64,000 bases of DNA, from IMG/VR virus record IMGVR_UViG_3300023174_000003, positions 1 to 64,000 of that record, one strand, 5' to 3'. Below, in pieces: positions 36,837 through 56,133 of the stretch (position 1 is its first letter; each line of letters opens with the position of its first letter). Below the pieces are notes generated by a model. It had not been told where the DNA came from. It did not search any database and was given only the letters and a program-made list of their open reading frames with translations. The translations under genes and the position numbers were made by a program. Origin of the DNA: a virus.

Positions 36837-36862
36837 AACAGTTTAACGTCTTGTTTAGGACG
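36837..36862 (-). promoter_or_regulatory. family-1 pseudoknot leader element, copy 1
   Basis: CGUC-CUAAACAA-GACG-UUAAAC-UGUU. Confidence 0.8.
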
Positions 36863-36872
36863 ATAAATACTT

Positions 36873-37808
36873 TTAAGTTGTTTTGTAAGAAAGTTGAGGA
36901 AGACTGGTGCCAGGGAATGGAACAAACCCTGCATTTAGCATAGCGTCAAACAGATCCCATGCATCATCTGCAGTGTAGTGTTCCTGTGGTTTGTACGTAC
37001 GCCAGTGCGACATAGGTGCCATAGATCCCGACTTGGTATACAAGACAAGGAACCGACCCTTTGACTTATGGTCTTCTGGTGGAGCATACCACCAAGCTGC
37101 AGCGTTATCAGGAGCAGACCCTCTGTACTGATCACGTACCTCAGAGCGTTTAACCAATAGCTCACGATACTTCTTGAACCAAGTTAAATGAATGCACCAC
37201 GGCTTATAGTCTTGGATCTCTTGCTGGAACTCAGACAGGTCTGTTAGCTGCCGCTGGAATGAACCACAAGAACAATAAGGTTCTTTGACTTTTTGTTGTG
37301 CAGTAACTTCTTCTAGATCAGAGTCCATATCTACTTCCTCATCAGGATCATAGAATCCTTCTGGTGCAATCAAGTGGCCAAGATCTGTATGCTCACTTTG
37401 CAACATAGCCTTAAGCTTGTCTTTACTCTTAAGGTAAATGAACTTATCAATCCATTCTCTTTGGAGTAACGCTTGACCAGTCTTGTGACTTAGCTGGTGT
37501 TGATAATGCCAACCTTTTAGCATTACGTAAGAGTTGTTATGCCAGATACCAGGACCTCTATAGTTAGGACCAAGGTATGCAAAGAAGTTTTTAAGACGAC
37601 CAGTAAATTGTTGGTGTGCATTAATTACACTTTGCTTAGGCACTAATAGCTCAGTGCCATCTTGATGTACTACAACAATATTGTTATCACGTAGATAGAT
37701 CCCACTTACAGTGGTCTCATCAAACTCTGGTAGTGCACGTCTAATATTGCTAATAGAATAGATTTGTTTTTGTGCAGAATTGAATTGGTCTTGAATTAGA
37801 TTGTTCAT
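36873..37808 (-). CDS. SWIM Zn-finger protein
   Basis: CSCGSF...WCIH. Confidence 0.7.
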   Translation of the reverse strand: MNNLIQDQFNSAQKQIYSISNIRRALPEFDETTVSGIYLRDNNIVVVHQDGTELLVPKQSVINAHQQFTGRLKNFFAYLGPNYRGPGIWHNNSYVMLKGWHYQHQLSHKTGQALLQREWIDKFIYLKSKDKLKAMLQSEHTDLGHLIAPEGFYDPDEEVDMDSDLEEVTAQQKVKEPYCSCGSFQRQLTDLSEFQQEIQDYKPWCIHLTWFKKYRELLVKRSEVRDQYRGSAPDNAAAWWYAPPEDHKSKGRFLVLYTKSGSMAPMSHWRTYKPQEHYTADDAWDLFDAMLNAGFVPFPGTSLPQLSYKTT

Positions 37809-37829
37809 TGGTTAAAATTGAGTTGATGA

Positions 37830-38045
37830 TTAGATGAACAGGTCGTCCTGCTCTGCCGGAATCTTAGCAGAGCTAGGGGCAGAGTCGTAGGCCCTCTTAC
37901 CAATTCTTAATAAACCATAGGCAAGCATCCCCCACGTAACAGGGTTAGCAAGTGATGCTGCAAGGAGTGTTCCCCCTACGGCATAGGGTGCCGTGTGTTT
38001 GATAGCAGCTTTTAGTTTTGTGTTCATGGTGGTAGCATTGAGCAA
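37830..38045 (-). CDS. small membrane protein
   Basis: hydrophobic segment. Confidence 0.5.
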   Translation of the reverse strand: MLNATTMNTKLKAAIKHTAPYAVGGTLLAASLANPVTWGMLAYGLLRIGKRAYDSAPSSAKIPAEQDDLFI

Positions 38046-38047
38046 AG

Positions 38048-38320
38048 TTGTTCAGGCTTATGGAAATCAAAGTCATGCCCTTAAGTAAATTAGAACTTGA
38101 CCCAGGGTTAGGTGATTTGTTCTGGAAAGAAAAAGTACAACGAGAGATTAACGAGAATACCTCAGTCAATGAACTAAGACAGTACGCATCTCTGTTGTTG
38201 TCTCTTGCAGTACAACGTCAAGGAATAATAAAAGGACTTGCAAAAGAATTGCTCACTATCAAACATCTATTGATAGATGATAGTGAGCTTGCCAATCCTG
38301 AGATTACACCAGAGGGTTAG
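38048..38320 (+). CDS. helical hypothetical protein, possibly a divergent NblA-like
   Basis: lone plus-strand ORF; L.D.F...K.QREI.....NELR..A.LL pattern. Confidence 0.5.
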   Translation: MFRLMEIKVMPLSKLELDPGLGDLFWKEKVQREINENTSVNELRQYASLLLSLAVQRQGIIKGLAKELLTIKHLLIDDSELANPEITPEG

Positions 38321-38811
38321 ATGAGTGAATCATCTATTTTTAAATACTTATTACGATATAAAGAATTATGTATTTTTAAATATTTAGTTACGGTATAAGT
38401 ACAACAACCCATTTCAGCTGCAACATTAACACGAGATAAACCTTGAGATTTAAGTCTTAAAATTTTTTCTTGTTGTTCATTGGTTAATTTCCAAGGATGT
38501 TGACCAAGTTTTGCACGATTGCGGTCATGCATATCTTTAATATTATCTGTTTGAGTTCCAGGCAATAAATGCAATGGGTTGCAACAAGATCTATTATCAC
38601 AAGTATGCCGAATAATAATCTTTGGAGTTAATGCAATATTATAATGATGCTCATAACTCCAGCGATGTGCAAGCATTGCTTTTTGGTTGCGTTTTGGATA
38701 ACCATACCCATCTTTATGCCAGCGTTTACCTATGTACGGCCAACAAGAATTAAGACCCCCGAAGGGGTCAATCATTGCTAGCAAACTAATAGAGTTGTTT
38801 GCTATTGTCAT
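38317..38811 (-). CDS. HNH homing endonuclease with C-terminal HTH
   Basis: CWPY.G....DGYG...AHR.SY...IRHTCDNRSCCNPLHL..GT..DN..DM. Confidence 0.9.
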   Translation of the reverse strand: MTIANNSISLLAMIDPFGGLNSCWPYIGKRWHKDGYGYPKRNQKAMLAHRWSYEHHYNIALTPKIIIRHTCDNRSCCNPLHLLPGTQTDNIKDMHDRNRAKLGQHPWKLTNEQQEKILRLKSQGLSRVNVAAEMGCCTYTVTKYLKIHNSLYRNKYLKIDDSLI

Positions 38812-39881
38812 TAGATTAATCCATCATCCTCTCCAGTAACGGGATCCCTGGCACTAGGCAAAGCAGTTACATCAACTTCTTTGGTGTTACGTAGTTCAGG
38901 TAGTATCTCTACTCCCTCTCGTATTCCATAGGCACCACCAAGCTTTGCAGCATCCTGCTTAGCATGTTGATTGATATAGTCCTGGAACATTACCTGGTAC
39001 TTCCAAGTTGATTCCCGATCTTCATCAGGAATACTCATTGCATTTAATGATTCAACGGCGGCTTCTTGTGTGCTGTAATCAGGGATATCAAACCCTTCAA
39101 TAGCACATATCTCAACGTTATTAGCGCCGCGCATGTCATTAACAAGCTGAGGTGCAAATACTGTTGTTGCATAAAACTTCTCGTTAAACATCAGTGGAAT
39201 CTCAGAGTCAAGTGCCTTGCTCAAACACTTAGACATCTCCTTCTCATACAACTTAATCTTCTCGGCTGCATCAGTACCATTAAGTCCTTTTAAGGTAAGG
39301 ACCATAGGTAGCTTATGTGCCCGTTGATTTTCTGTAGTAAGGATAAAGATTAAGTATTTGGTACGTACACTGTACTTACGTTTGTACATCTCGCCTTTAC
39401 TGTTAGCAAGATCAGCAGCAACCTTGTCATTATCCCAGAGGGATTTGACTTGATCGTTGTCAAACGTACCAATTGTTTGCCTCATCCCTGTGGTTTCCTC
39501 AACCATGAGGGGAGAACGTAGAAGGACTTGAACTCTAGGCTGAGTGAAATTGAGTCCTTCTTCAATTGAAGTATTGGGAGCCATACCGAAAGTCTGCTTG
39601 TAGTTCCAGATAACAGAACCCTTAGCAAATTGATCTTCAGTTGCGCTCCATCCGCAAGTATCCAGGTCTGATATCCGCACGAACCAACCTCTTGTCTTAG
39701 ATTTGTTGAGGGGTTGGATTGTGACGAAGTTCTGGTATCCTGAAACAAATTCTTTAGATTGAAATAACGCAAAAGATTCCAAGCCACGTGTTGCAATAGC
39801 AGAAGTTTTTTTCATAGCCATGGTCGAGGTTAGTTTCGTAGTAGGTGAGTTGGTCGTGGTGTCAAACAAAGTGCTAGTCAT
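38811..39881 (-). CDS. conserved replication/recombination-region protein (DUF5895-like, tentative)
   Basis: PRVQVLLRSPL, R..YLIF.L..N..AHK.P.VLTLKG; start reset to the ATG after family-1 copy 2. Confidence 0.6.
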   Translation of the reverse strand: MTSTLFDTTTNSPTTKLTSTMAMKKTSAIATRGLESFALFQSKEFVSGYQNFVTIQPLNKSKTRGWFVRISDLDTCGWSATEDQFAKGSVIWNYKQTFGMAPNTSIEEGLNFTQPRVQVLLRSPLMVEETTGMRQTIGTFDNDQVKSLWDNDKVAADLANSKGEMYKRKYSVRTKYLIFILTTENQRAHKLPMVLTLKGLNGTDAAEKIKLYEKEMSKCLSKALDSEIPLMFNEKFYATTVFAPQLVNDMRGANNVEICAIEGFDIPDYSTQEAAVESLNAMSIPDEDRESTWKYQVMFQDYINQHAKQDAAKLGGAYGIREGVEILPELRNTKEVDVTALPSARDPVTGEDDGLI

Positions 39882-39901
39882 TTGAGTAGCGAGGTTGGAC
39901 A

Positions 39902-39930
39902 CAGGCAGTTTAGCGTCATGCCTGAGGACG
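39902..39930 (-). promoter_or_regulatory. family-1 element, copy 2
   Basis: CGUC-CUCAGGCAU-GACG-CUAAAC-UGCCUG. Confidence 0.8.
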
Positions 39931-39949: not shown

Positions 39950-40750
39950 TCAGAAAGGTGCGTTGGCATCGTTGGAGTCAAAGCGCCCAGGTAGATCAGG
40001 CAAGTTGTTACCTACGTTCTGTCCCCAGGGCTCAGCAATTTCATCAGCAGTCTTACCACCCCATAGGCTTTGAGGTGCATCAGATGAGGTTGTGGTCTGT
40101 GCTTTGATACCACCAGAAGACTCTTGGACCTTGGGTGCTAGTGTCATTGATACCAACTGGATCTTGGTATTAGATTTACGTTCTTTAGTTTCTTTATCTA
40201 ACCAAGAATCAGTAATCAATCTTCCCTGGATCGTAAGCCCAGTTCCTTTCCTTGTCATGTTTGCTAGTAGTTCAGCTTGATTAAATCTGTCAGTAGCTGA
40301 GTTAATAGCATAGAAGTTAAACAGGTCAGCTTGACCTTTACCAGTGCTAACAGATAGTGATTGATTAACAATCATTAAACCTTCTGCAGTTGTTCTGAAT
40401 GAACGTTCATCTTCTTGGTTAATATCTTTTACACAGCGACCACTAAGGATAACTGTATTTAAGATAGGGAATGATTCATTAACAATAGCTATTACGCCAC
40501 CATGTAATGAGAATGTGCGTGACTCTAAATCATGACGTAGCTTTGCACCATGGATATAGATGTGTGATCCCTTAGGAGTCTTTAGAAAACGCTCTGAACT
40601 TTTACCGTAGACATTTAGTTCAATAGCCGTTGCCGACTTATTGCCTACTGGAGGTAGTAGTACAGGACAACGTACGGCTGTATTAGTAGCCGATATGTAA
40701 ACCTCAGTTGGTTCTTGAGTTGTTTGTGCGCAAAGACTTGCAAAGTTCAT
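39950..40750 (-). CDS. ssb: single-stranded DNA-binding protein (tandem OB-fold)
   Basis: NTVILSGR...KGTGLTIQGRL..DSW.DKET.E.KS; acidic APF C-terminus; start reset to ATG 40750. Confidence 0.8.
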   Translation of the reverse strand: MNFASLCAQTTQEPTEVYISATNTAVRCPVLLPPVGNKSATAIELNVYGKSSERFLKTPKGSHIYIHGAKLRHDLESRTFSLHGGVIAIVNESFPILNTVILSGRCVKDINQEDERSFRTTAEGLMIVNQSLSVSTGKGQADLFNFYAINSATDRFNQAELLANMTRKGTGLTIQGRLITDSWLDKETKERKSNTKIQLVSMTLAPKVQESSGGIKAQTTTSSDAPQSLWGGKTADEIAEPWGQNVGNNLPDLPGRFDSNDANAPF

Positions 40751-40771
40751 GGAATTAAAAAGAAAAGTGGA

Positions 40772-40798
40772 AGACAGTTTAACGTCATGCCTAGGACG
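40772..40798 (-). promoter_or_regulatory. family-1 element, copy 3
   Basis: CGUC-CUAGGCAU-GACG-UUAAAC-UGUCU. Confidence 0.8.
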
Positions 40799-40803: not shown

Positions 40804-42630
40804 TTAGTGGCAATCCAGCCAAGTATAACCTACCTTTGCATCCCCTTCTATAAGGCAACGAAAGTTAAAGGTTTGCTGCGCCTGGGGGAAAGCAGCCAGT
40901 GCTTGCTCCTTAACTTTTTCTACATGTTCAGGTAGACAAGCAAGCTGGACCTCGTCATGAACCATGGCAAGCTGCATCCAATCCTTGTCATAGAACAAGT
41001 CAATGTTATTTAAATTGTTATGGATATTGACAACAACTTGTTTCATAAGTATTGCGCCAGCTGATTGCAATAGTACATTCAATCCTTTAAATGCAGAACG
41101 ACAATAGAGTTGCCGACGATCAAGGCCAATAAGATATCCCCTGGTATCAATGTTATCTTGTATCTGTTGTTTAAGTAACTTAAGTGCAGGCACACCATTC
41201 ATGAATGAATTTATTGCAGTACTTCCTATGTCCTTAAGAACTGTTGCATCTTTTTCATTCGGATCAATAATGGTACCAGCCTTGACACCACCACATCCAT
41301 ACAACAATCCATAGAGTAAACGCTTAGATATATCCCTGGTACTTACACCAAATTGTTCTTGGTTATAAGTATGGATATCAACGTCTGGGTTAATGACCAT
41401 ATTACCGTACTCACCATTATCCCAACAAGCCAAGTAACCAGCAAGACATCTAAGCTCCAATGCTTTTGCATCAACACCAATAAGTACATAACCTTTTGGT
41501 GCATGGAATAAGTCACGGCATTCTTTACCGTAAGGACTATATGCCCCTGGCACCTGAGCCATGTTAGGTTCTTTATGACTACATCTTCCAGTGACACATC
41601 CATTTGTATTCATGCTGCCATGCATCTTGTTATCTTCTTTGCTTACAAGTTTTAACCAAGCATTTTGACCATCAGCTATTTGCCCTAGCCTTTTCTTAAT
41701 CAACTGGTACTCAGCTAATAGCTTAGCTTCTGGAAATGGTAAGGCTTCTAGTACATCATCATCAAGTGATGCATTGCCTTTGTCTGTTGTTTTATCAGGC
41801 TGCCAACCATACTTAGTATGTAACCGTTCGACTACCTGCTTGCGTGAACCAGGATTAAATTTGTTTTCTATTTGTTTAGTAAATGGTACACCTGCAACAT
41901 ACCCACGGCCTTTATTGTTTACTTTCGGAATGAATACAGACTCTTCCGTAATAGGCGGAAAAGCTTTTTGTAATGCCTCCTCAAGTTCTTCTTGTCTTTG
42001 CCTAAGCGTATCCACCAGATCAAGAGCTTTGTCCACATCAAATGGAAAGCCAGTAATAATCTGGTCGTTAATTGCTTCAGCAAATTCATGTTCAAGTTTA
42101 AGAGACGACTCAGGGTAGTTCTTAGATTGAATGAAGTTAAACAACTTGTAAGTAACACTTACATCTTGTCTACAGTATTCTGCCATCTCCTCTGAGTATG
42201 CAGAGAAATCTTTGAATTCAATCTTGTTATCAGATAGTCTATAACCCCAAGCTTTAAGTGATGCAGATCCTCTAAGCTTTATTGGTACCTCAGGATACAC
42301 ACTAAGATCAAGATCATACAAGACTTCGCGTGGCCAGATAAGCCTGGTGCATACCAAGGTATCAATAAGTCGAGCCGCTCTAAAGGTATAGAATGGATAA
42401 AGTTTTCTTATGACTGGGATGTCATAGAAGATTAAGTTATGTCCAATTAAAACATTAGCCTTAGCCATGTGCTGCAGGCCGTCAGCAATAGCATCAGGCC
42501 CGTAAGTAAAAGTTTGTTTTCTCTGGACATCATATATAACAATGCAGAAGATTTCCTCTACTTTATCATAGAGCCCATTGGTTTCAATATCTATGACATA
42601 AATCTTTTCATTTGCGGTAAAGTTGTTCAT
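40804..42630 (-). CDS. polA: family A DNA polymerase with 3'-5' exonuclease (T7-like)
   Basis: DIET exo I; DAKALELR motif A; KRLLYGLLYG motif B; VHDEVQ motif C. Confidence 0.97.
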   Translation of the reverse strand: MNNFTANEKIYVIDIETNGLYDKVEEIFCIVIYDVQRKQTFTYGPDAIADGLQHMAKANVLIGHNLIFYDIPVIRKLYPFYTFRAARLIDTLVCTRLIWPREVLYDLDLSVYPEVPIKLRGSASLKAWGYRLSDNKIEFKDFSAYSEEMAEYCRQDVSVTYKLFNFIQSKNYPESSLKLEHEFAEAINDQIITGFPFDVDKALDLVDTLRQRQEELEEALQKAFPPITEESVFIPKVNNKGRGYVAGVPFTKQIENKFNPGSRKQVVERLHTKYGWQPDKTTDKGNASLDDDVLEALPFPEAKLLAEYQLIKKRLGQIADGQNAWLKLVSKEDNKMHGSMNTNGCVTGRCSHKEPNMAQVPGAYSPYGKECRDLFHAPKGYVLIGVDAKALELRCLAGYLACWDNGEYGNMVINPDVDIHTYNQEQFGVSTRDISKRLLYGLLYGCGGVKAGTIIDPNEKDATVLKDIGSTAINSFMNGVPALKLLKQQIQDNIDTRGYLIGLDRRQLYCRSAFKGLNVLLQSAGAILMKQVVVNIHNNLNNIDLFYDKDWMQLAMVHDEVQLACLPEHVEKVKEQALAAFPQAQQTFNFRCLIEGDAKVGYTWLDCH

Positions 42631-42841
42631 CTTGAATTGATAGGCCATGCTTTGACAATTGTTCATCGTTTTCTTGAATCCATTTAAGTATACTGATGAT
42701 CCCTGTTTTTTGAGGATGAGATAACACCTTACTTAAATCTGTTTCACTTAGTACAGGAATCAGATGGAACTTGTTGTTCTCTTGGTCTGCTTGGATGGCA
42801 TGGGGTGTACCATTCAAGATGCAGCTAATGACATAAGCCAT
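42608..42841 (-). CDS. hypothetical protein
   Basis: ORF track. Confidence 0.55.
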   Translation of the reverse strand: MAYVISCILNGTPHAIQADQENNKFHLIPVLSETDLSKVLSHPQKTGIISILKWIQENDEQLSKHGLSIQDEQLYRK

Positions 42842-42934
42842 GGAGGTTAAGACTAATAATCAAGGTGTTTTCCTGGTACTCCCCCAGGGGTCTGGGGGAA
42901 GCACAAGAACATCTAAATGATAACCAGTTTTATT

Positions 42935-43717: not shown

Positions 43718-43741
43718 TGTTCAGTTGAATGTGAGTTGGAT

Positions 43742-43767
43742 AGCAGTTTAACGTCATGCTTAGGACG
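43742..43767 (-). promoter_or_regulatory. family-1 element, copy 4
   Basis: CGUC-CUAAGCAU-GACG-UUAAAC-UGCU. Confidence 0.8.
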
Positions 43768-48507: not shown

Positions 48508-48582
48508 GGTGTTGAATGAATGGACAAGGATAGTGTAGTGGAACTAAGGCCAGTGGTTAGCTGACCTTAGCTTTATTTAATG

Positions 48583-48948
48583 TTATGTTACAGGCGTAGC
48601 TTGAGTCTCATGAGTCTCACCCATCATGCCATTCTCCTTGAGGCGATCAAGCATTTGACACATGATCGTTGCATGCTCATGGGTTTTATCCATAAATGCC
48701 TGAGCACGGGCAGCTGATATAGTATGGACTGTACCGTTGGCTTCTACATAAGCCCAACTTCCGTCAGGCTGTGGCTGCCCCTGGAGCGCAAGCCGTTCTG
48801 AGTTACGTACATAACGTAGCTCTAGATTGTGACGGTCAGTTAATCCTTCGTTATCAATCCAGGTTGCACCTAGGTTATAACGTTTGTCATCATCCATGTA
48901 GGCATGGACTTGTGGAATGAGGCCAGTAAAGCAAGATAAAATTGACAT
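48583..48948 (-). CDS. hypothetical protein
   Basis: ORF track. Confidence 0.6.
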   Translation of the reverse strand: MSILSCFTGLIPQVHAYMDDDKRYNLGATWIDNEGLTDRHNLELRYVRNSERLALQGQPQPDGSWAYVEANGTVHTISAARAQAFMDKTHEHATIMCQMLDRLKENGMMGETHETQATPVT

Positions 48949-48970: not shown

Positions 48971-49003
48971 TGGGGCTTACGTCAGGTTGGCGCTGACTGC
49001 CCA
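48971..49003 (-). promoter_or_regulatory. family-5 element, copy 2
   Basis: UGGG-CA-GUCAG..CUGAC-GUAAGC-CCCA. Confidence 0.7.
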
Positions 49004-49011: not shown

Positions 49012-50715
49012 TCAGTTAGATACTAGGTCCTTCTCACGGATCTGTAAAGCTTCTTGGAATATACCTTGATATTTCTCACGTTCTATAGATGTCAATGATC
49101 TGTTACTTGGTCCTGCAATCTGTTCTACATGCATGGTGCCATTGGATACCTTGAGTTGTATTGTGAATACAGGCTTGTTGTCAACCATACATAAGACAAT
49201 GAATTGTTTCTTAGCTTTTATAAGATTGGCATATGTTGATGATGCACCTACACAATTACGTACTGCTTGCCCCCATTGTGCAAGCTGATGAGTATCTATG
49301 GGTTGAATGAATGTCCAGATCTCATCAGCAAGTTTTACTTTGACAGGAACAGGGAATAAATCCTGTGGTAGTTTTTGGTTTGGGTTACTTATCTTCCAGG
49401 CTTCTGCTTGTACATGATCATGGAACTCAGTGTAACGCCAACGCCTAGGCGGAGTAAGTTCTTTACCTGCAGCTAATACATTATTAATCATGTCCATTGT
49501 ATCTCTAAATAAATAGAATGTAAGCATATAACAATTCAGTTGATTATCTTTATGCCTATTACTTGGCTTTTCATCTTCTATATATTTGTTTAGCATATTA
49601 AATAATGATGCCACTGGTAGGTTGGTTGCTAGCCATTTCTTTGCTAACGAATCAGTTTTATAATAAGCGATTGAATGGATACGGCCAATAGATAAAAACA
49701 TATTGGTTTGTATTCCAGTCTGTAAATAATCCATAGGGCAGTCAGGATATATATCAAGGATATCTAGAATCCAAGCCAAAGTATGTATAAGTTTTTTGTG
49801 TATAGAACTAATTTCTTTCTTGGACTTAGTGGCTGGATCATTGAACGTATTAATAATTAATTGACATTGCTCATTGATGTAACGTTTAAACCATGGCTTA
49901 CCAAGTTTCTCTTGCATAACAGTAAATGATCTATCTAAATTTTGGGTATACCGTAGCCTTAGTATTTCTATATACAATTCAAAGCTAGGCACAATGTTTT
50001 GATTCTTTGGTATTGATGTATGATGTAATTCTAATAGTTCATGGTAATTATTTTTAGCCGTATCTATTCTGTCCCATACACCACCATCAGTATAAGTAGG
50101 TATTGAATTTATAATGGCTTCTCTGAATGGTTGTATTACACTTGGTCTTATCTCTTTACCTTTTGTATTGTATCCTTTGAAGTTACCATGTTCCCAATAG
50201 TGTGATTGACATCCATTAGATATATCTTCTGCTGTTACAAACTTTGTATAGACATTGAACTCTATGCGTCCATACTTTTTGATAGTAGTATCTTTTCTAT
50301 TTATGTCTCTAATGTATACCTGTTTGCATGTAGTTTCTGTATTCTTAAATGCATAAGTAAACCCATAGATATAATCTTCACCTGGGTTAGGTAACCATGC
50401 TGCAATCCACAAGGATTCGTAGTGGTACACAACAGCTTTAAGTTTTGTTGTGGCTACCATATCTTTATCATATGTAACACGACTAAAAGTATGATAGCGA
50501 TATGGAACTTCTTCTTGGTTAATAGCAATTATTGCTGCAAGTAAATTGCTAGGCATAACAATGTGTGCAGGGATAATATCATTAGGCAAGCCAAGATGAA
50601 AGCGTGGTTTCTTAGGCTTGCTTACAGGAGTAGTAGCAGCTTTAGCCAAAGCTTTTAACTTTGGATCATAAGCTAATAGTTCTGTGCGCAGGTTGGCGGG
50701 TAGTTGGAATTGCAT
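49012..50715 (-). CDS. PcfJ-like domain protein
   Basis: EFHDH...P.DTHQLAQWGQAVRNCVG...Y......TIQL...VEQI.G..N. Confidence 0.8.
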   Translation of the reverse strand: MQFQLPANLRTELLAYDPKLKALAKAATTPVSKPKKPRFHLGLPNDIIPAHIVMPSNLLAAIIAINQEEVPYRYHTFSRVTYDKDMVATTKLKAVVYHYESLWIAAWLPNPGEDYIYGFTYAFKNTETTCKQVYIRDINRKDTTIKKYGRIEFNVYTKFVTAEDISNGCQSHYWEHGNFKGYNTKGKEIRPSVIQPFREAIINSIPTYTDGGVWDRIDTAKNNYHELLELHHTSIPKNQNIVPSFELYIEILRLRYTQNLDRSFTVMQEKLGKPWFKRYINEQCQLIINTFNDPATKSKKEISSIHKKLIHTLAWILDILDIYPDCPMDYLQTGIQTNMFLSIGRIHSIAYYKTDSLAKKWLATNLPVASLFNMLNKYIEDEKPSNRHKDNQLNCYMLTFYLFRDTMDMINNVLAAGKELTPPRRWRYTEFHDHVQAEAWKISNPNQKLPQDLFPVPVKVKLADEIWTFIQPIDTHQLAQWGQAVRNCVGASSTYANLIKAKKQFIVLCMVDNKPVFTIQLKVSNGTMHVEQIAGPSNRSLTSIEREKYQGIFQEALQIREKDLVSN

Positions 50716-50738: not shown

Positions 50739-50767
50739 CAGGCAGTTTAACGTCATGCCTGAGGACG
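50739..50767 (-). promoter_or_regulatory. family-1 element, copy 5
   Basis: CGUC-CUCAGGCAU-GACG-UUAAAC-UGCCUG. Confidence 0.8.
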
Positions 50768-51220: not shown

Positions 51221-51222
51221 GA

Positions 51223-51435
51223 TCAGACCTCCTGTAGTTGTTGTGTAGCCACAGCCACTGGCTGCTGAAACGCAGAGCCAGGACCATAGCGTTGGACTAG
51301 ATCTGGGAATGCACCTAGGATACGTTGACGGTTAGTGGGATCAGCATACCGTAGTGCGTTGGCCATAGTACTGACGAACTTGCCGCCGTACTTGGTCATG
51401 GTCTCGGTCATGTGATAAATCTCAGTGCTGGTCAT
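51223..51435 (-). CDS. small phage protein (YGG.FV..LA.A...AD..N...I..AFP type)
   Basis: start reset to the ATG after family-1 copy 6. Confidence 0.65.
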   Translation of the reverse strand: MTSTEIYHMTETMTKYGGKFVSTMANALRYADPTNRQRILGAFPDLVQRYGPGSAFQQPVAVATQQLQEV

Positions 51436-51456: not shown

Positions 51457-51485
51457 CAGGCAGTTTAACGTCATGCCTGAGGACG
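51457..51485 (-). promoter_or_regulatory. family-1 element, copy 6
   Basis: identical to copy 7 over 55 bp (51431-51485 = 52817-52871). Confidence 0.85.
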
Positions 51486-52279: not shown

Positions 52280-52579
52280 CTATGCGAATGGCGTAAAGCC
52301 TGGTGCATCTATCAACTCTTGTAGTGTGCATACAGCATCTGCTGCTAGCTCACTGAACACAACCTTGTTATCAGTGACATATTCATTTGACTGATCCTCT
52401 ACTACTTCACATCCGCTATCTTCTAGCTCATCGCAGAACTCATCCCATGTCATGTGCTTGCCATAGACATGAGCGTATCTGCCCGTGGCATCTGCCACTA
52501 ATGCAACATAGTGATTCATTGTACTCATTTCAGGGGTGGTTGTACTCATTACTTGTGTAGCTCCTGGTGTTGTTGCCAA
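52280..52579 (-). CDS. acidic hypothetical protein (start uncertain)
   Basis: ORF track. Confidence 0.55.
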   Translation of the reverse strand: MATTPGATQVMSTTTPEMSTMNHYVALVADATGRYAHVYGKHMTWDEFCDELEDSGCEVVEDQSNEYVTDNKVVFSELAADAVCTLQELIDAPGFTPFA

Positions 52580-52821
52580 TGGGCAGCATGAATCTCTGCT
52601 GCTGTAACAGCGGACTCACCTCCGGTGTTGTCATAGAGATACTCAGGTGTTGGGTCATAGCCCGTCACCTCTTCTAATGCATCGATGCAGTCTGAGATAG
52701 TATCCAGCATCCACTGTGGTGCAGAATACATTTGGTCTTTGGCTTCCTCTTGTTTGAGGACAGCGTTCATCTTTTTGATCCAGCGTTCGCATGCGCACTC
52801 TGGAGTCTTGTCTAAAGTCAT
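52549..52821 (-). CDS. hypothetical protein
   Basis: start reset to the ATG after family-1 copy 7. Confidence 0.6.
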   Translation of the reverse strand: MTLDKTPECACERWIKKMNAVLKQEEAKDQMYSAPQWMLDTISDCIDALEEVTGYDPTPEYLYDNTGGESAVTAAEIHAAHWQQHQELHK

Positions 52822-52842: not shown

Positions 52843-52871
52843 CAGGCAGTTTAACGTCATGCCTGAGGACG
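52843..52871 (-). promoter_or_regulatory. family-1 element, copy 7
   Basis: CGUC-CUCAGGCAU-GACG-UUAAAC-UGCCUG. Confidence 0.85.
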
Positions 52872-52944: not shown

Positions 52945-53298
52945 TTAGATCATTCCTAAGAGTGACAGCCAGCTATCAGGGTGATCTGGTTCCACCTCAT
53001 CGTAGGTAGGTGTCAGGCAAATGGAATCAAACGTCCATTCCTCTATGTCTTCCATTGTTGGCACCTCGTACCAACCAATGAGATCATCTTGTTCATCTTT
53101 GTAGTTACGTCCTTTGGGTATCCAATAGTACATGAGTACTCCCTTCTTATTCTTACGGACAGCACCGTTATACGGCAGCTGACCTTTCAGTGGATCCTGG
53201 AAGCAGCACTCGACAGGATATTGTTCCTGTCCATCTGCTTCTGTCAATGGCTCGTAGCCTAGTGCTGTGGCCATCTGTTGCTGTTCAGGTAATAGCAT
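52945..53298 (-). CDS. conserved phage hypothetical protein
   Basis: PT.EDIEEW.FDS.C.TP..D.VEPDHPDSWL..LG.I. Confidence 0.65.
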   Translation of the reverse strand: MLLPEQQQMATALGYEPLTEADGQEQYPVECCFQDPLKGQLPYNGAVRKNKKGVLMYYWIPKGRNYKDEQDDLIGWYEVPTMEDIEEWTFDSICLTPTYDEVEPDHPDSWLSLLGMI

Positions 53299-53319
53299 GG
53301 TGTGAATGCGATTGGATGT

Positions 53320-53345
53320 CTGCGTTGTAAGGATGCGCAGCCCCC
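53320..53345 (-). promoter_or_regulatory. family-2 leader element, copy 1
   Basis: GGGGG-CUGCG-CAUCCUUACAA-CGCAG. Confidence 0.7.
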
Positions 53346-53353
53346 TGTTAATC

Positions 53354-53737: not shown

Positions 53738-53924
53738 TACCTGCGGCTGCCATTACGACAGTTGCAATAATAAATGTCATCAACACAAAGGTTGTGGCAT
53801 CTAATACTTTGCCGAGCATTTTTGAGCTCAATACTTTTCTAAGCATTTTTAAGTGCATGATAGATTTGCGTTGGTACGAATCAAGTTCAACGTAACGGCC
53901 TACAATTTTATGGTAGTTCTTCAT
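53688..53924 (-). CDS. membrane hypothetical protein
   Basis: single TM segment. Confidence 0.5.
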   Translation of the reverse strand: MKNYHKIVGRYVELDSYQRKSIMHLKMLRKVLSSKMLGKVLDATTFVLMTFIIATVVMAAAGIDITQLQSHPQEIHHD

Positions 53925-54118
53925 TACATTCCATATAGTATGTCACTGTCTTCGTCCTCGTTAATAAGCTCAAATTGAGACCACAAACGATAAGTTTCTA
54001 TAGTGTTTGCAATGCCGTGGGTGTGGCTTGCATATTTTCGTGCTTCATTTATATCGTTAAAACATGTATCAATGTTCTTGTCAACAGGGTGATACACAAT
54101 GTGAACGTAGTTAGCCAT
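53924..54118 (-). CDS. hypothetical protein
   Basis: follows family-2 copy 2. Confidence 0.55.
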   Translation of the reverse strand: MANYVHIVYHPVDKNIDTCFNDINEARKYASHTHGIANTIETYRLWSQFELINEDEDSDILYGM

Positions 54119-54145
54119 TAGATTCTCCGTTGTAGTTGTGAATGC

Positions 54146-54171
54146 CTGCGTTGTTAGGATGCGCAGCCCCC
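54146..54171 (-). promoter_or_regulatory. family-2 element, copy 2
   Basis: GGGGG-CUGCG-CAUCCUAACAA-CGCAG. Confidence 0.7.
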
Positions 54172-54188
54172 TCGTGTTAGATTAACTT

Positions 54189-54495: not shown

Positions 54496-54750
54496 CTAAT
54501 CTTCGATGCCATACTCCTGCTCATATTTAAGCAAGAGTGCGTTTCGGTCAACACACTTCTTGAGGAATTGTGCCAATGGATGCAAAGCATCCCACTCTAA
54601 TGCACCGTCTTGCCACTGGAAGTACATCTCCAGTAGCTCGGTACGTTTCTGTTCAATAGACCAATCAACACAAGGGTGTTGAACAGTCGAGTCTCGCCTG
54701 GCAAGCAGACGTGCATCTTTTATGATGCGTTCAACCGTAGCACTGGTCAT
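54496..54750 (-). CDS. hypothetical protein
   Basis: start reset to the ATG after the leader structure. Confidence 0.6.
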   Translation of the reverse strand: MTSATVERIIKDARLLARRDSTVQHPCVDWSIEQKRTELLEMYFQWQDGALEWDALHPLAQFLKKCVDRNALLLKYEQEYGIED

Positions 54751-54755
54751 GATTG

Positions 54756-54831
54756 TGAGTAAGCCACACTCAGTGTGTGGCAATAACTGGACCAGGGTTT
54801 GCACCTGGTCACCCGCTTTAACGGATCAGCT
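54756..54831 (-). promoter_or_regulatory. T-loop three-way junction (54785-54831) plus pseudoknot-like unit (54756-54784)
   Basis: AGCUG-AUCCG(UUAAAG)CGGGU-GACCAGG(UGCAAAC)CCUGGUC-CAGUU then AUUGCCACAC-AC-UGAG-UGUGGC-UUA-CUCA. Confidence 0.7.
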
Positions 54832-54987
54832 TGCTTGACGCATCTCCACTAATAGCTCAACCAGTATCTGGTTGTAACTTTTACTAGATTCTTTGGAGTG
54901 ATATTCTGCTATCACTTGTGCATCATCTAACTCTTTGTTGCTGAAGGTGCCCATAAACTTGAACAGTTGTTCGTAAGTAAGTGTCAT
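54826..54987 (-). CDS. 53-aa hypothetical protein (below cutoff)
   Basis: MTLTYEQLFKFMG...EMRQAS*; its stop lies in the junction stem. Confidence 0.55.
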   Translation of the reverse strand: MTLTYEQLFKFMGTFSNKELDDAQVIAEYHSKESSKSYNQILVELLVEMRQAS

Positions 54988-54996
54988 TAAATTGAT

Positions 54997-55077
54997 GCTG
55001 TGCAGGTGCCCATCTCCTGCGGACTAGGCAATACTGAGTAGGGGATTCGATCCCCCGGCATCACGCCTGGTACTCAG
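54997..55077 (-). promoter_or_regulatory. tRNA-like junction (55034-55077) plus family-3 unit (54997-55032)
   Basis: CUGAGUA..GGC(GUGAU)GCC.GGGG(AUCGAAU)CCCC-UACUCAG then AUUGCCUAGUCCGCAGGAGAUGGGCACCUGC. Confidence 0.7.
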
Positions 55078-55244
55078 AACGGAATCTCATCAAACGACTC
55101 CACACATGAATCAGTAGCTGGATCATCAATGACCCAGCCTTCTTCCTCTGCTTCTGCTTCTAACACCCATTGAGGTGTGTTATTTGCTAACCAGATATCA
55201 TGAAGGAGTTGTTCTTGATGAATGTTGCTAGGTTGAATACGCAT
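55074..55244 (-). CDS. 56-aa acidic protein ending FDEIPF (below cutoff)
   Basis: MRIQPSNIHQEQLLHDIWL...DSCVESFDEIPF*. Confidence 0.6.
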   Translation of the reverse strand: MRIQPSNIHQEQLLHDIWLANNTPQWVLEAEAEEEGWVIDDPATDSCVESFDEIPF

Positions 55245-55254
55245 TTAACTGTGA

Positions 55255-55336
55255 GCTGTGCAGGTGCCCATCTCCTGCGGACTAGGCAATGACTGTGGGA
55301 GGGTTTGCACCTCCCAACCCGCTTTAACGGATCAGC
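55255..55336 (-). promoter_or_regulatory. T-loop junction (55292-55336) plus family-3 unit (55255-55290)
   Basis: GCUG-AUCCG(UUAAAG)CGGGU-UGGGAGG(UGCAAAC)CCUCCCA-CAGU; 36-bp exact repeat of 54997-55032. Confidence 0.72.
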
Positions 55337-55559
55337 AACCAAGCATCTCGTCCACGTAGGACTTGATGACTTGGAGTTGGTCTCGGTTAAGTGTCTGGCT
55401 ACGGCCATACTCCAAAAGGTCAAGGACCTGGAGCATGACGCTTTCGCCAGCCTCTTCACGAGACGGTACGCCACACATGTCGAAGATCTCATTACGAGAC
55501 ATCTCAGTGATGTCAACGCAATCGATCTTACGAACGGTGGCGATGGTGGTCTTAGTCAC
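55332..55559 (-). CDS. hypothetical protein
   Basis: ORF track; its stop lies in the junction stem. Confidence 0.6.
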   Translation of the reverse strand: MTKTTIATVRKIDCVDITEMSRNEIFDMCGVPSREEAGESVMLQVLDLLEYGRSQTLNRDQLQVIKSYVDEMLGC

Positions 55560-55579
55560 GGTGTTACTCCGTAGGTGAG

Positions 55580-55613
55580 CTTGGACTTACACTGCTGAAG
55601 TGCAGCTGCCAAG
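55580..55613 (-). promoter_or_regulatory. family-5 element, copy 3
   Basis: CUUGG-CA-GCUGC..GCAGU-GUAAGU-CCAAG. Confidence 0.7.
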
Positions 55614-55638
55614 ATCGTGACTGACCACCGAGTTGTCT

Positions 55639-55663
55639 GCTGCGTTTAACGTCCAGCTCGACG
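55639..55663 (-). promoter_or_regulatory. family-1 element, divergent copy 8
   Basis: CGUC-GAGCUG-GACG-UUAAACG-CAGC. Confidence 0.65.
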
Positions 55664-55814
55664 CCTAATCTATTGGTGAATCTAGAACCTAACTCTCGTA
55701 CATGAACGAAAGCTACCGATTCTAGCACCACCTAACCTAGGATGATACGTATTCGTATTATAAATGTTACAATACGTGTTAATATCACCACAGGTTAGTG
55801 GTGTGTGGCAACAG

Positions 55815-56084
55815 TCAGTTAACTTGCTTAGCACTGGCAATCGCTTTGCCATTCTTCACAAGTACTGATAACTTATACTCAGGCGAGCAGCTATCTTCTA
55901 GGCAATCACTTGGGTCGTAACACTCAACTGCAATTGCATTGTGGAGATCCACAAGCCATTGCTTAACGTTCGTATCAAACTGACCCAAGACTTCAAGGTG
56001 AATGCTCACCTTCTTGCCTCTCATCAGATACTCTGCTGCCTGGTCGCAACGAGCAAAATACACTTCAGCTTGTGATAGTTGCAT
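55815..56084 (-). CDS. hypothetical protein (first gene of the early block)
   Basis: follows family-2 copy 3. Confidence 0.6.
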   Translation of the reverse strand: MQLSQAEVYFARCDQAAEYLMRGKKVSIHLEVLGQFDTNVKQWLVDLHNAIAVECYDPSDCLEDSCSPEYKLSVLVKNGKAIASAKQVN

Positions 56085-56108
56085 GATTTGAATGCGAGTG
56101 TGTACAAC

Positions 56109-56133
56109 CTGCGTTGCAAGGATGCGCAGCCCC
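56109..56133 (-). promoter_or_regulatory. family-2 element, copy 3
   Basis: GGGG-CUGCG-CAUCCUUGCAA-CGCAG. Confidence 0.7.

What the first reader, a model, noticed from the sequence alone, without database searches (positions are those of the whole stretch)
36837..56133. Candidate system: a toolkit of about 20 interchangeable structured-RNA leader cassettes punctuating the early/middle transcript
Seen: five unrelated short sequence families occupy equivalent minus-strand slots. They are family 1 x8, family 2 x3, family 3 x2 plus one analogue, family 5 x3 and T-loop junctions x3. Most start within about 20 nt of (or overlap) the upstream stop and end roughly 5-30 nt before the next start codon. 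The spacer is C/A/U-rich, lacks a Shine-Dalgarno sequence and often begins with UCC(C)A. Three families keep base-pairing while changing sequence, which argues for RNA structure rather than a DNA operator. Established: cyanobacteria have the 5'-3' exoribonuclease RNase J, and T4-type phages have dispersed promoter stem-loop cassettes (PeSL) linked to modular gene shuffling. Inference: a phage post-transcriptional system, either mRNA processing with 5'-end protection (xrRNA-like) or SD-independent (re)initiation, whose repeats also act as recombination joints for swapping small genes.
Basis: partly seen in the sequence, partly recalled or inferred. Interest (0 to 1): 0.92.

Follow-up and report, generated by a model that had tools for sequence, protein, structure and literature searches.

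The report
Coremin-like pseudoknots and tRNA-like spacers in phage
The gaps between the early and replication genes of this freshwater phage hold several conserved folded-RNA modules, and the commonest one carries the core sequence of the plant-virus "coremin" RNA that stops a 5'-to-3' exonuclease, which suggests phages cut and stabilise their multi-gene messages with RNA structure.

Summary
The minus-strand intergenic spacers at 36.8-56.1 kb carry recurring structured modules, each followed by a G-poor leader without a Shine-Dalgarno sequence. None matches Rfam 15.

- **Family 1** has 7 intact copies and 1 degenerate copy, and occurs nowhere else in the 79.8-kb genome. It is an H-type pseudoknot: NGUC-CU-[S2a]-N-GACN'-UUAAAC-[S2b]. 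Both helices covary in more than 100 viral contigs. G.U pairs outnumber A.C pairs 60 to 7, so it folds in the sense RNA.
- **Link to coremin:** its invariant letters (GUCC...GACGUUAAACU) are those of the plant-virus coremin Xrn1-resistant RNA. Its fold is the Watson-Crick coremin variant previously known from a screen and one natural virus.
- **Distribution:** it also occurs in prophages and mobile elements of Firmicutes, Saccharibacteria, Chloroflexota and Phytoplasma. RNase J was found in 4 of 5 such genomes tested. No hit came from Pseudomonadota, and nothing convincing from 5,426 E. coli genomes.
- **T-loop modules:** two of these (D8, TL) are tRNA-like three-way junctions whose closing stem contains the upstream stop codon.
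- **Other modules:** PKB is a second covarying pseudoknot. hpB and D4 are conserved hairpins.
- **Module exchange:** modules are swapped at exact module edges among related phages.

Best reading (inferred, not shown): cis-acting RNA punctuation, in which roadblocks and processing signals give each cistron its own stable 5' end. The coremin feature hp2 is absent here.

The parts
52843..52871 (-). Family 1 coremin-like pseudoknot; 27 nt after UUAAAC comes the ATG of a 90-aa ORF (52821..52549)
51457..51485 (-). Family 1 pseudoknot upstream of a 70-aa ORF (51435..51223)
50739..50767 (-). Family 1 pseudoknot; upstream stop TAG plus a 5-nt spacer; upstream of the 567-aa PcfJ-like gene (50715..49012)
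43740..43767 (-). Family 1 pseudoknot (S2 AGCA/UGCU) upstream of the GP88-family gene (43717..42935)
40771..40798 (-). Family 1 pseudoknot (S2 with G.U) upstream of the SSB gene (40750..39950); upstream stop TAA plus a 5-nt spacer. The isolate S-EIV1 has a copy in the same place.
39902..39930 (-). Family 1 pseudoknot (GACGCUAAAC variant) upstream of the DUF5895 gene (39881..38811)
36835..36862 (-). Family 1 pseudoknot (S2 AACA/UGUU) upstream of a 37-aa ORF (36815..36702)
55639..55663 (-). Degenerate family-1 copy (L1 is GA instead of CU, 4-bp S2). It sits at the 55668 breakpoint of a 1.5-kb presence/absence variant.
56102..56136 (-). D4 module (G-run + CUGCG hairpin with CAUCC loop) at the head of the minus-strand gene array, before the 89-aa ORF 56084..55815
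54139..54173 (-). D4 module before the 64-aa ORF 54118..53924. Its 5' edge (54172) is the other breakpoint of the 1.5-kb variant.
53313..53347 (-). D4 module before the 117-aa ORF 53298..52945
55285..55339 (-). D8 tRNA-like three-way junction. P0 contains the upstream stop UGA, P1 is CCG/CGG, and P2 is 7 bp with a UGCAAAC loop. It ends in AUUGCC.
54779..54833 (-). D8 three-way junction, second copy (P2 stem entirely different, loop identical)
55027..55078 (-). TL tRNA-like module. The acceptor-like stem CUGAGUA/UACUCAG holds the stop UGA; it is followed by the GGC-GUGAU-GCC mini-hairpin and the GGGGG-AUCGAAU-CCCCU T-arm.
55257..55287 (-). PKB pseudoknot (S1 GCCUA/UGGGC, S2 GCAGG/CCUGC) between D8 and the 56-aa ORF 55244..55074
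54999..55029 (-). PKB pseudoknot, identical second copy, between TL and the 53-aa ORF 54987..54826
54763..54781 (-). hpB hairpin (GCCACAC-ACUGA-GUGUGGC) between D8 and the 84-aa ORF 54750..54496. The stem covaries in relatives.
48972..49002 (-). Conserved irregular hairpin followed by UUCCAC and a G-poor leader, before ORF 48948..48583. It is kept with compensatory changes in L004 and L089.
48543..48571 (-). 12-bp hairpin (z = -4.5) followed by UCCAC and a G-poor leader, before ORF 48507..48205; conserved in L004
47818..47851 (-). Weak hairpin followed by AUCCAC and a leader, before ORF 47786..47430. This is the least certain member.
42879..42901 (-). Core of a strong extended hairpin (z = -4.2) in the spacer before ORF 42841..42608

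Best explanation
The spacers of a long minus-strand early/replication gene array carry cis-acting structured RNA modules that act on the sense transcript.

Shown: the modules are conserved, sense-strand RNA folds.

Family 1 is a compact H-type pseudoknot. S1 is NGUC/GACN'. L1 is C(U). S2 is 5-6 variable base pairs. L3 is UUAAAC. It is the Watson-Crick form of the coremin exoribonuclease-resistant RNA.

Inferred: the pseudoknot is a directional mechanical roadblock. Decay by the host's 5'-to-3' exonuclease RNase J starts after an upstream cut and stops just 5' of S1. This leaves a downstream cistron whose 5' end is buried in the knot and whose 20-22-nt G-poor leader stays free for SD-independent initiation. 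The packing fits a knot that is meant to stay folded: the stop codon is never closer than 5 nt, and the ATG lies 25-28 nt after UUAAAC, so neither the terminating nor the initiating ribosome has to melt it.

The D8 and TL modules are tRNA-like three-way junctions with an acceptor-like stem stacked on a T-arm-like hairpin, about 11-12 bp in all. They probably mark endonucleolytic processing sites, by RNase Z or RNase P type recognition. The PKB, hpB and D4 structures that follow would then cap the new 5' end. Because each module is self-contained, the modules also serve as homology patches at which genes and modules are exchanged.
For: Structure:
- S2 is 94% paired, with 133 double-change cells against 41 in shuffles, and 0 of 500 shuffles reach the observed value.
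- The outer S1 pair covaries C-G, U-A, A-U and G-C.
- G.U pairs number 60 against 7 A.C.

Identity with coremin:
- The shared letters are GUCC..GACGUUAAACU.
- Natural variation falls on U13/U14 and the paired N'. These are positions that tolerate change in coremin mutagenesis. AAAC and the L1 C are nearly invariant; one copy reads AAUC (PMC6546385).
- A Watson-Crick S2 after AAAC was shown to give Xrn1 resistance and ribosome stalling (PMC10321173).
- A flaviviral xrRNA blocks RNase J1 in vitro (PMC5760640).

Distribution:
- There are more than 115 viral loci.
- The 53 genome loci lie in Firmicutes, Saccharibacteria, Chloroflexota and Phytoplasma, with none in Pseudomonadota.
- RNase J scores over the curated cut-off in 4 of 5 such genomes.
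- Nothing convincing was found in 5,426 E. coli genomes.
- The motif is present in the isolate S-EIV1, which infects Synechococcus.

Geometry:
- The upstream ORF stop has a hard limit at -8, which is also the mode (29 of 105); only 1 of 105 lies closer upstream (at -7), and 3 are placed inside the motif (+5).
- The ATG peaks 25-28 nt after UUAAAC (49 of 96).

Contexts without an ORF:
- Three tandem copies are each followed by a hairpin and a U-run (L101).
- Some copies are followed by a terminator (L135, L157).
- Some copies lie directly 5' of type III hammerheads (L164, L137, L301).
- These link the knot to RNA processing and stability rather than to initiation.

tRNA-like modules:
- RNAalifold gives a three-way junction with 11 of 17 pairs showing double changes.
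- P0 is 94.5% canonical and P2 is 99.7% canonical with 17 distinct stems.
Against: - No RNA 5' or 3' ends are available. The only RNA runs are contigs of relatives and cannot show ends.
- Coremin and its Watson-Crick variant both need a downstream hairpin (hp2) for Xrn1 resistance in vitro. The window's leaders are unstructured, and only 22% of 253 unique copies have a stable hairpin within 35 nt.
- The loop is 8-9 nt, not the 4 or 6 nt of tested coremins.
- In the hammerhead tandems the knot ends up on the upstream cleavage product, which a simple model of 'protect the downstream cistron' does not predict.
- The tight knot-to-ATG spacing is equally what a translational element would show.
- One of five host genomes tested lacks RNase J (a Bacteroidetes MAG).
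- The invariance of GUCC/GACG/UAAAC in alignment A1 was imposed by the search pattern.
- The phage's host is inferred only from distant kinship to S-EIV1.
- RNase Z or P action on D8 and TL is pure inference. RNase P cleavage would remove the stop codon from the upstream ORF.
Confidence: 0.5

Rival explanations
1. The modules are translation elements. In this reading the pseudoknot and the other folds position or recruit the 30S subunit onto the SD-less, G-poor leader, acting as a standby or docking site. Alternatively, they insulate the leader and block post-termination ribosomes, so that each cistron is initiated independently. Nuclease resistance would be incidental.
For: In 62% of 253 unique family-1 copies an ORF starts 15-44 nt after UUAAAC, with a sharp peak at 25-28 nt. 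Cassette-led starts lack SD, whereas starts without a module that abut or overlap the preceding ORF often have one. Coremin blocks scanning ribosomes and drives -1 frameshifting, and the Watson-Crick form does so without hp2 (PMC10520033 and PMC10321173). The D8 and TL stems contain the upstream stop codon at a fixed place (89 of 92 for D8), which ties folding to termination.
Against: The same knot occurs 55-110 nt upstream of SD-led genes in Firmicute prophages. It also occurs before hammerheads and before terminators with no ORF. A motif whose sequence is conserved from plant RNA viruses to phages of many phyla is unlikely to dock on a specific ribosomal site. Bacterial ribosomes do not scan from a 5' end. 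No complementarity to 16S rRNA was noted by eye; this was not searched systematically.
Confidence: 0.25
2. The modules are operators for trans-acting proteins. The candidates are a phage regulator in the manner of T4 RegA or gp32, or a host RNA-binding protein. The protein would nucleate on the fold and spread over the unstructured leader to repress a regulon of early genes.
For: The layout of a pseudoknot followed by an unstructured leader mirrors the T4 gene 32 operator. A copy precedes the SSB gene here and in S-EIV1. Multi-copy identical cores would give coordinate control.
Against: The knot's core is the same in unrelated phages, in an ICE-like element of Saccharibacteria, and in plant viruses (PMC6546385). 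No shared protein partner is evident. No RNA-binding family was found among the 29 window proteins scanned.
Confidence: 0.1
3. The modules are selfish or neutral repeats. In this reading they are miniature mobile cassettes or gene-conversion tracts that spread with small genes, perhaps aided by the homing HNH endonucleases in the region, and they have no role in expression.
For: Modules sit at gene-content breakpoints and are swapped among relatives. Some copies are 100% identical within the genome (PKB). Assembly contigs break at them.
Against: Compensatory covariation in five module types, strand-specific G.U pairs, fixed distances to stop and start codons, and conservation across phyla all indicate selection on the RNA fold.
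Confidence: 0.07
4. The modules are DNA-level signals: promoters for a phage or modified host RNA polymerase (N4-like hairpin promoters), stoperator-like repressor sites, or single-strand DNA structures.
For: The motifs are repeated, oriented and intergenic, and no sigma-70 promoters are evident in the 20-kb array. G.T wobble would also be allowed in single-stranded DNA of the same strand.
Against: Covariation preserves pairing, not sequence, in the variable helices. The pseudoknot topology has no precedent as a promoter. The core equals an RNA element characterised in RNA viruses. One contig from an RNA library (X20) of a related phage crosses the 36.8-kb copy, so no transcript start is seen there; this is weak evidence, because DNA carry-over in that library cannot be excluded.
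Confidence: 0.04

Closest known systems
Coremin motif (xrRNA_C) of beny-, cucumo- and other plant RNA viruses
   Same: It shares the letters GUCC...GACGUUAAACU. It has the GUC/GAC stem with a Y-R closing pair, a pyrimidine as the first loop nucleotide, and an essential AAAC. U13/U14 are variable in both. Tandem copies and intergenic placements exist in both.
   Different: Coremin has a 4- or 6-nt loop (YGAD/YGNNAD), a fixed CUAC after AAAC with no obvious Watson-Crick partner, and needs hp2. The phage form has an 8-9-nt loop whose centre pairs with 5-6 nt after AAAC, and usually has no hp2. It sits in mRNAs made from dsDNA phages and mobile elements of bacteria, where the relevant nuclease would be RNase J, not Xrn1.
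Watson-Crick coremin (xrRNA_WCC; selected in a frameshift screen, one natural case in Sanxia picorna-like virus 5; PMC10321173)
   Same: It is the same idea: hp1, then GUUAAAC, then an antiparallel pseudoknot between the loop and the following nucleotides. It lies a few nucleotides downstream of an ORF stop (8 nt in SPlV5, at least 5 nt here).
   Different: S2 is 3 bp there and 5-6 bp here. hp2 is still required for Xrn1 resistance there. Here there are hundreds of natural copies with covariation.
Luteoviral -1 frameshift pseudoknots (BWYV, PLRV)
   Same: They share the compact H-type dimensions: a short S1, a 1-2-nt L1 starting with C, an extruded junction nucleotide, and an A-rich L3 suited to an S1 minor-groove triplex.
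   Different: No slippery heptamer precedes the phage knots, which follow stop codons. BWYV knots do not stall Xrn1.
T7 early-mRNA RNase III sites; 5' stabilisers of Bacillus mRNAs (SP82, aprE, Stab-SD) (from general knowledge)
   Same: These are structured elements between or ahead of phage cistrons that define processed ends and differential stability.
   Different: Those are long irregular hairpins cut by RNase III, or 5'-terminal hairpins and ribosome-binding sites. None is a pseudoknot roadblock, and none is shared across phyla.
tRNA punctuation, plant mitochondrial t-elements, MALAT1 mascRNA (from general knowledge)
   Same: D8 and TL have an acceptor-like stem stacked on a T-arm-like hairpin with a 7-nt T-loop-like loop. 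They lie exactly at cistron boundaries.
   Different: There is no anticodon arm. ARAGORN and Rfam tRNA models do not score them. The stop codon lies inside the acceptor-like stem. Cleavage is untested.
T4 PeSL cassettes; mycobacteriophage SAS/ESAS and stoperators (from general knowledge)
   Same: These are dispersed, oriented intergenic repeats in phage genomes that are linked to modular gene exchange or lie just upstream of starts.
   Different: Those are DNA promoters or operators, or conserved SD-containing sequences. Here selection acts on RNA pairing.

Membership tests
Coremin xrRNA (xrRNA_C) | hp1 stem GUC/GAC with a pyrimidine-purine closing pair | tested here: met
   GUC/GAC is present in all 7 window copies and in all model hits. 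An extra outer pair covaries.
Coremin xrRNA (xrRNA_C) | hp1 loop of 4 nt (YGAD) or 6 nt (YGNNAD) | tested here: not met
   The loop is 8-9 nt. It starts with C (Y) and ends with A then mostly U or A, but its centre is a helix strand.
Coremin xrRNA (xrRNA_C) | Conserved 10-nt spacer GUUAAACUAC | tested here: inconclusive
   G/N'-UUAAAC-U is kept (8 of 10). The last positions are variable because they pair with the loop. Natural changes fall at U13/U14, as tolerated in mutagenesis.
Coremin xrRNA (xrRNA_C and WCC) | Stable hairpin hp2 directly downstream (needed for Xrn1 resistance in vitro) | tested here: not met
   The window leaders fold at 0 to -1.2 kcal/mol. 55 of 253 copies elsewhere have a hairpin within 35 nt.
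Watson-Crick coremin (xrRNA_WCC) | Antiparallel Watson-Crick pseudoknot between the hp1 loop and the nucleotides after AAAC | tested here: met
   S2 is 5-6 bp and 94% paired, with 5 of 6 pairs showing double changes; 0 of 500 shuffles reach the observed covariation.
Any xrRNA | Halts a 5'-to-3' exoribonuclease at a defined site without protein | not testable with these tools
   This needs enzyme assays or end mapping. The RNA contigs laid cannot show ends.
tRNA / tRNA-like element (D8, TL) | Acceptor stem stacked on a T arm (about 12 bp) with a T-loop | tested here: inconclusive
   In D8, P0 (5 bp) plus P2 (7 bp) are contiguous. TL has 6-7 plus 4-5 bp. The loops UGCAAAC and AUCGAAU fit part of the T-loop pattern. 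There is no 3D test.
tRNA / tRNA-like element (D8, TL) | Recognised by tRNA gene finders or the Rfam tRNA clan | tested here: not met
   ARAGORN finds 0 genes in the window. There is no tRNA-clan hit at E up to 5 over 53280-56350.
Rfam families in general (riboswitches, pistol, hammerhead, GP20 motifs) | Score at or above gathering, or any suggestive E-value | tested here: not met
   There are 0 gathering hits in the window and only noise at E up to 10.
-1 frameshift signal | Slippery heptamer 5-9 nt upstream of the knot | tested here: not met
   The 12 nt upstream hold stop codons, not X XXY YYZ.
Sigma-70 promoter / PeSL-type promoter cassette | -35/-10 hexamers at the repeats | tested here: not met
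   37 promoter-like sites were found against 45.9 expected, and none lies at the modules.

The most novel reading that the evidence does not exclude
Phages and other mobile elements of bacteria that have RNase J use a coremin-class exoribonuclease-resistant pseudoknot, the same RNA fold and core letters as in plant RNA viruses. They use it together with tRNA-like junctions to cut operon transcripts into separately stabilised cistrons. This would be the first natural xrRNA system in prokaryotes. It would supply hundreds of covarying natural sequences that fix the long-unsolved coremin pseudoknot architecture. It would also imply either very old common origin or repeated convergence on one minimal roadblock fold.
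Probability: 0.4. Interest if true: 0.92.

Novelty: new variant of a known kind. Interest (0 to 1): 0.85.

Why it matters
The papers read here treat xrRNAs as devices of eukaryotic RNA viruses. One of them states that RNase J1 is an enzyme xrRNAs never naturally meet (PMC5760640). Searches of the held library for xrRNA or exoribonuclease-resistant RNA together with phage or RNase J found no natural prokaryotic case.

A coremin-type knot that is multi-copy in a dsDNA phage and spread through prophages and conjugative elements of RNase J-bearing phyla would extend the concept to bacteria. It would also give a direct, cheap test, namely RNase J assays and 5'-end mapping in the cultivable S-EIV1/Synechococcus pair.

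The natural covariation settles a structural question left open by the coremin papers: whether the loop pairs with the nucleotides after AAAC. It also suggests that a longer S2 may replace hp2.

The tRNA-like junctions that embed the stop codon, and the mix-and-match A+B architecture, point to an unrecognised layer of operon design in phages of hosts with weak SD usage. They also offer compact parts for stabilising or insulating cistrons in synthetic operons.

Tried and rejected
- **Rfam:** a gathering search of the whole window, E-value searches on the modules and a search of 18 bacterial loci found no family for any module. Only hammerhead type III and tRNAs were found in neighbouring loci.
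- **tRNA/tmRNA finder:** none in the window.
- **Promoter and terminator scan:** no enrichment.
- **Riboswitch reading (preQ1-I-like):** rejected. There is a single junction nucleotide, no pocket-forming loop, 7 copies before unrelated genes, and no sequestering of the start.
- **Pistol ribozyme:** it shares ACGUUAAA after P1, but P2, P3 and the GU cleavage site are absent.
- **Frameshift or readthrough signal:** there is no slippery site, and the distance from stop to next ATG is not in a constant frame.
- **The AUG inside PKB as a start codon:** rejected as a general feature, because about a third of homologues read AUA there.
- **CAGU/ACUG pairing between the linker and the hpB loop:** not supported by variants.
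- **A pseudoknot between the G-run and the CAUCC loop of D4:** it cannot be tested, because both segments are invariant.
- **RNA evidence:** the two metatranscriptome runs hold only contigs of relatives at 85-95% identity. One crosses the 36.8-kb knot. They show no ends, no strand and no proof of transcription.
- **BLAST of the 33-37-nt motif against cultured phages and E. coli:** this is insensitive. It found S-EIV1, a Nostoc phage and a Moorella phage. In E. coli it found one 22-nt partial match in a plasmid gene, taken as chance.
- **Earlier findings of this scan:** nothing returned.
- **Supplement of the 10,006-csRNA paper:** not held, so I cannot say whether any module is among those unnamed candidates.
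- **PHROGs and Pfam on 29 window proteins:** no RNA-binding or nuclease partner appeared beyond HNH endonucleases.

Full report
**What the window is.** The window is part of a complete 79,791-bp virus record with direct terminal repeats. DNA runs that hold it come from lake and freshwater metagenomes. Its only match among cultured phages is Synechococcus phage S-EIV1, covering 4% of the region at 79% identity. From about 56.6 kb down to 36.7 kb the genes run on the minus strand. They include a family A DNA polymerase, an SSB, GP88, DUF5895 and PcfJ-like proteins, two HNH endonucleases and many small ORFs.

Gene junctions there are of two kinds: overlapping or nearly touching, or separated by spacers of 21 to about 380 nt, of which those of about 50 nt or more hold a structured element and end in a G-poor leader.

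**Checking the observation.** The repeats exist at the stated places and on the stated strand.

- Family 1 matches a strict pattern 7 times, against 0.00 expected from shuffles.
- A covariance model built from homologues finds those 7 at 42-47 bits and nothing else in the genome.
- The other families are D4 (3 copies), D8 (2), a tRNA-like analogue TL (1), PKB (2 identical copies) and hpB (1), plus four further hairpins.
- Leaders after family 1 have 6% G against 21% overall and do not fold.
- SD-like motifs occur at 9 of 46 starts. Eight of these are starts with no module and a short or overlapping junction with the preceding ORF; the ninth is the D4-led start at 54118.
- There is no excess of sigma-70-like promoters, no tRNA and no Rfam match at gathering or permissive thresholds.

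In 109 unique copies, the five to six nucleotides after UUAAAC pair with the centre of the hairpin loop. Helix 2 is 94% paired. There are 133 cells with changes on both sides against 41 in shuffles, and no shuffle or slid register comes close.

The search pattern fixed helix 1, but lower-scoring model hits show its outer pair changing. C-G becomes U-A, A-U, G-C or U.G, while GUC/GAC stays. G.U pairs outnumber A.C by 60 to 7, so the fold belongs to the transcript of the coding strand.

The architecture is S1 of 4 bp, L1 of C(U), S2 of 5-6 bp, one junction nucleotide, and L3 of UUAAAC.

**Geometry.** Across 138 unique copies the stop codon of the upstream ORF shows a hard limit. Its first base is at -8 (a 5-nt spacer) in 29 of 105 cases. 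The counts tail off further upstream. Only one case (-7) lies closer upstream, and three are placed inside the motif at +5.

The next ATG peaks 25-28 nt after UUAAAC, in 49 of 96 cases. From what is known of ribosome footprints, these are about the closest distances at which a terminating ribosome upstream and an initiating 30S downstream need not unwind the knot. That link is an inference.

**What family 1 resembles.** A literal search of the paper library for GACGUUAAAC led to the coremin motif of plant viruses. Coremin reads GUCCGAAGACGUUAAACUAC followed by a hairpin, hp2. The papers report the following.

- It stalls Xrn1 one nucleotide 5' of hp1, blocks scanning ribosomes and promotes -1 frameshifting (PMC6546385, PMC10520033, PMC10321173).
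- Mutagenesis shows that the first loop nucleotide must be a pyrimidine, and that AAA and the following C are essential.
- U13U14 can be changed.
- A pseudoknot was suspected but not demonstrable.
- A screen produced a Watson-Crick version (xrRNA_WCC), for which the authors found a single natural example.

The phage element has the same core letters, the same tolerated and untolerated positions in its natural variation, and a clear Watson-Crick S2. It differs in having an 8-9-nt loop, a longer S2 and, in this phage, no hp2. The papers state that hp2 is required for Xrn1 resistance in vitro, though not for ribosome stalling. I therefore file it as a new variant, not a proven member.

**Where else it occurs.** A more specific pattern scan of 185,579 species genomes gave 53 loci. 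They lie in Enterococcus, Finegoldia, Butyrivibrio, Selenomonadaceae, Erysipelotrichaceae, Megasphaera, Kurthia, many Saccharibacteria, Chloroflexota and a Phytoplasma. There are scattered hits in other phyla, including one Bacteroidetes MAG, and none in Pseudomonadota.

RNase J scores above the curated cut-off in four of five such genomes tested; the exception is the single Bacteroidetes MAG. A BLAST of the motif against 5,426 complete E. coli genomes found nothing convincing. The cultured S-EIV1 has six model hits, and the best lies just upstream of its SSB gene, as in the window.

Contexts vary.

- In Enterococcus and related prophages the knot follows a terminator-like U-run and lies 55-110 nt upstream of SD-led scaffold-like genes.
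- In Saccharibacteria it lies 7 nt after a DUF7249 gene, in a relaxase-bearing element.
- In L101 three tandem copies are each followed by a hairpin and a U-run.
- In L164 (four times), L137 and L301 it lies directly 5' of a type III hammerhead ribozyme.

A flaviviral xrRNA blocks RNase J1 in vitro (PMC5760640). No paper in the library reports a natural xrRNA in a phage or bacterium.

**The other modules.**

- **D8 distribution:** D8 occurs in 84 viral loci.
- **D8 fold:** with 8 nt of upstream flank, RNAalifold folds 70 copies into a three-way junction in which 11 of 17 pairs show double changes.
- **P0:** 5 bp, 94.5% canonical in 106 unique copies. It includes the first two bases of the upstream stop codon and covaries with it: CUG/CAG, UUA/UAA, UUG/CAA. 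A stop triplet sits at that exact position in 89 of 92 copies.
- **P2:** 7 bp with 17 different stems and a constant UGCAAAC loop, 99.7% canonical. It abuts the 3' strand of P0, giving 12 contiguous base pairs.
- **TL:** it has the same plan. An acceptor-like stem CUGAGUA/UACUCAG holds the stop codon, followed by a 3-bp mini-hairpin and a GGGGG-AUCGAAU-CCCCY arm, with compensatory variants.
- **What follows D8 and TL:** both are followed by (U)AUUGCC and then by PKB or hpB. PKB is a pseudoknot in which both helices covary. hpB is a hairpin whose stem covaries.
- **D4:** it occurs in at least 119 viral loci. It lies next to SD-less leaders in S-EIV1-like phages and directly before SD-led starts elsewhere. 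Only its two outer stem pairs vary, and they do so compensatorily.

**Modularity.** The same gene is preceded by different A-modules in different relatives. One gene has D8+hpB in the window and in L236, and TL+hpB in L004. Another has D8+PKB in the window and D4+PKB in L204.

Alignment shows that window 55663..55288 (the degenerate knot, a small ORF and D8) is replaced in L204 by a 30-nt D4. Homology resumes at 97% exactly where PKB begins. A related joint, 54172 to 55668 at the 5' edge of a D4 copy, appears in DNA contigs of two independent studies.

**How it most likely works.**

*Shown:* these are conserved, strand-specific RNA folds placed at fixed distances from stop and start codons. 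One of them carries the sequence core and fold type of a characterised exonuclease and ribosome roadblock.

*Inferred:*

- Family 1 halts 5'-to-3' decay by RNase J at the head of a cistron.
- D8 and TL are tRNA-mimic processing signals.
- PKB, hpB and D4 cap the new 5' ends.
- The G-poor leaders allow SD-independent initiation.

Together these would turn a long transcript into cistrons with individually set stability.

The main rival is a translational role: docking, insulation or coupling control. It explains the spacing and the embedded stop codons equally well, but it does not easily explain the ORF-less and ribozyme-linked contexts. The absence of hp2, and the position of the knot on the upstream product of hammerhead cleavage, are the chief unexplained points.

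**Limits.**

- Pattern searches impose the invariance of the letters they specify.
- Many homologous copies are not independent.
- The host is inferred.
- No experiment or end-resolved RNA data were available.

Noticed in passing
L164:2089-2176(-), L164:3071-3158(-), also L137:2258-2340(+), L301 (- strand): The family-1 pseudoknot sits immediately 5' of type III hammerhead ribozymes (Rfam RF00008, 50-51 bits). There are four such tandems within 8 kb of one Firmicute contig. After self-cleavage the knot would end the upstream product.
   Followed up: partly
L123:4531-5446(+) and the same locus in about 10 Saccharibacteria MAGs: A single, highly conserved copy of the knot lies 7 nt after a DUF7249 gene. 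About 210 nt of conserved non-coding sequence and a DUF3768 gene follow, next to a Replic_Relax gene. So it is in an ICE/plasmid-like element, not a phage.
   Followed up: partly
window 54119-54495 (-): This is a 377-nt spacer with several hairpins. One echoes the GGCGUGAUG mini-hairpin of TL. It also holds a 24-codon mini-ORF with a good SD (GGGAGGAG, 7 nt, AUG). DNA variants replace 54133-54186 with 18-22 other letters.
   Followed up: no
window 54999-55029 and 55257-55287 (-): In both window copies the AUG inside PKB opens an 8-codon frame that stops at a UAA overlapping or abutting the next gene's AUG (UAAUG, UAAAUG). About a third of homologues have AUA instead, so this is probably incidental.
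   Followed up: partly
window 46000-48000: This is a GC-rich island (0.53 against about 0.41). It has internal duplications: 55-nt and 28-33-nt repeats at 46743-47099, 46891-47067, 47194-47248/47429-47483 and 47280-47548. They suggest paralogous small genes of recent, possibly foreign, origin. It has no RNA modules, and its genes overlap.
   Followed up: no
window 38028-38811 (-): An HNH endonuclease gene (phrog_1872, 1.7e-26) starts where the DUF5895 gene ends. A 289-nt spacer without a recognised module follows. A second HNH-like or zinc-ribbon protein lies at 44535-45032. Homing endonucleases could contribute to the mosaicism.
   Followed up: no
window 56085-56641: This is the divergent control region between the minus-strand array and a 1131-aa plus-strand ORF with no Pfam or PHROG match. 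It holds a bidirectional terminator-like hairpin at 56294-56311 and a hairpin plus T-run at 56144-56168 that faces the array on the plus strand.
   Followed up: no
leaders in the window and in L004, L052, L086, L089: Within the S-EIV1-like group many family-1 leaders share UCCCAYUGCAAYUCAACYC before the AUG. The motif UCCA(C) also follows unrelated modules (D4 and the hairpins at 48.9, 48.5 and 47.8 kb). It recalls a tRNA NCCA end but is not conserved in other phage groups.
   Followed up: partly
L165, L171, L156, L174, L048 (Firmicute prophages): Downstream of the knot is a further conserved stretch (UUGCGUGUCUGGGC ... GGUCAGAUGUGCUAA) ahead of scaffold-like genes (MTFEEVK...). It is not matched by Rfam GP20-a/b at gathering score and may be another structured motif.
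   Followed up: no
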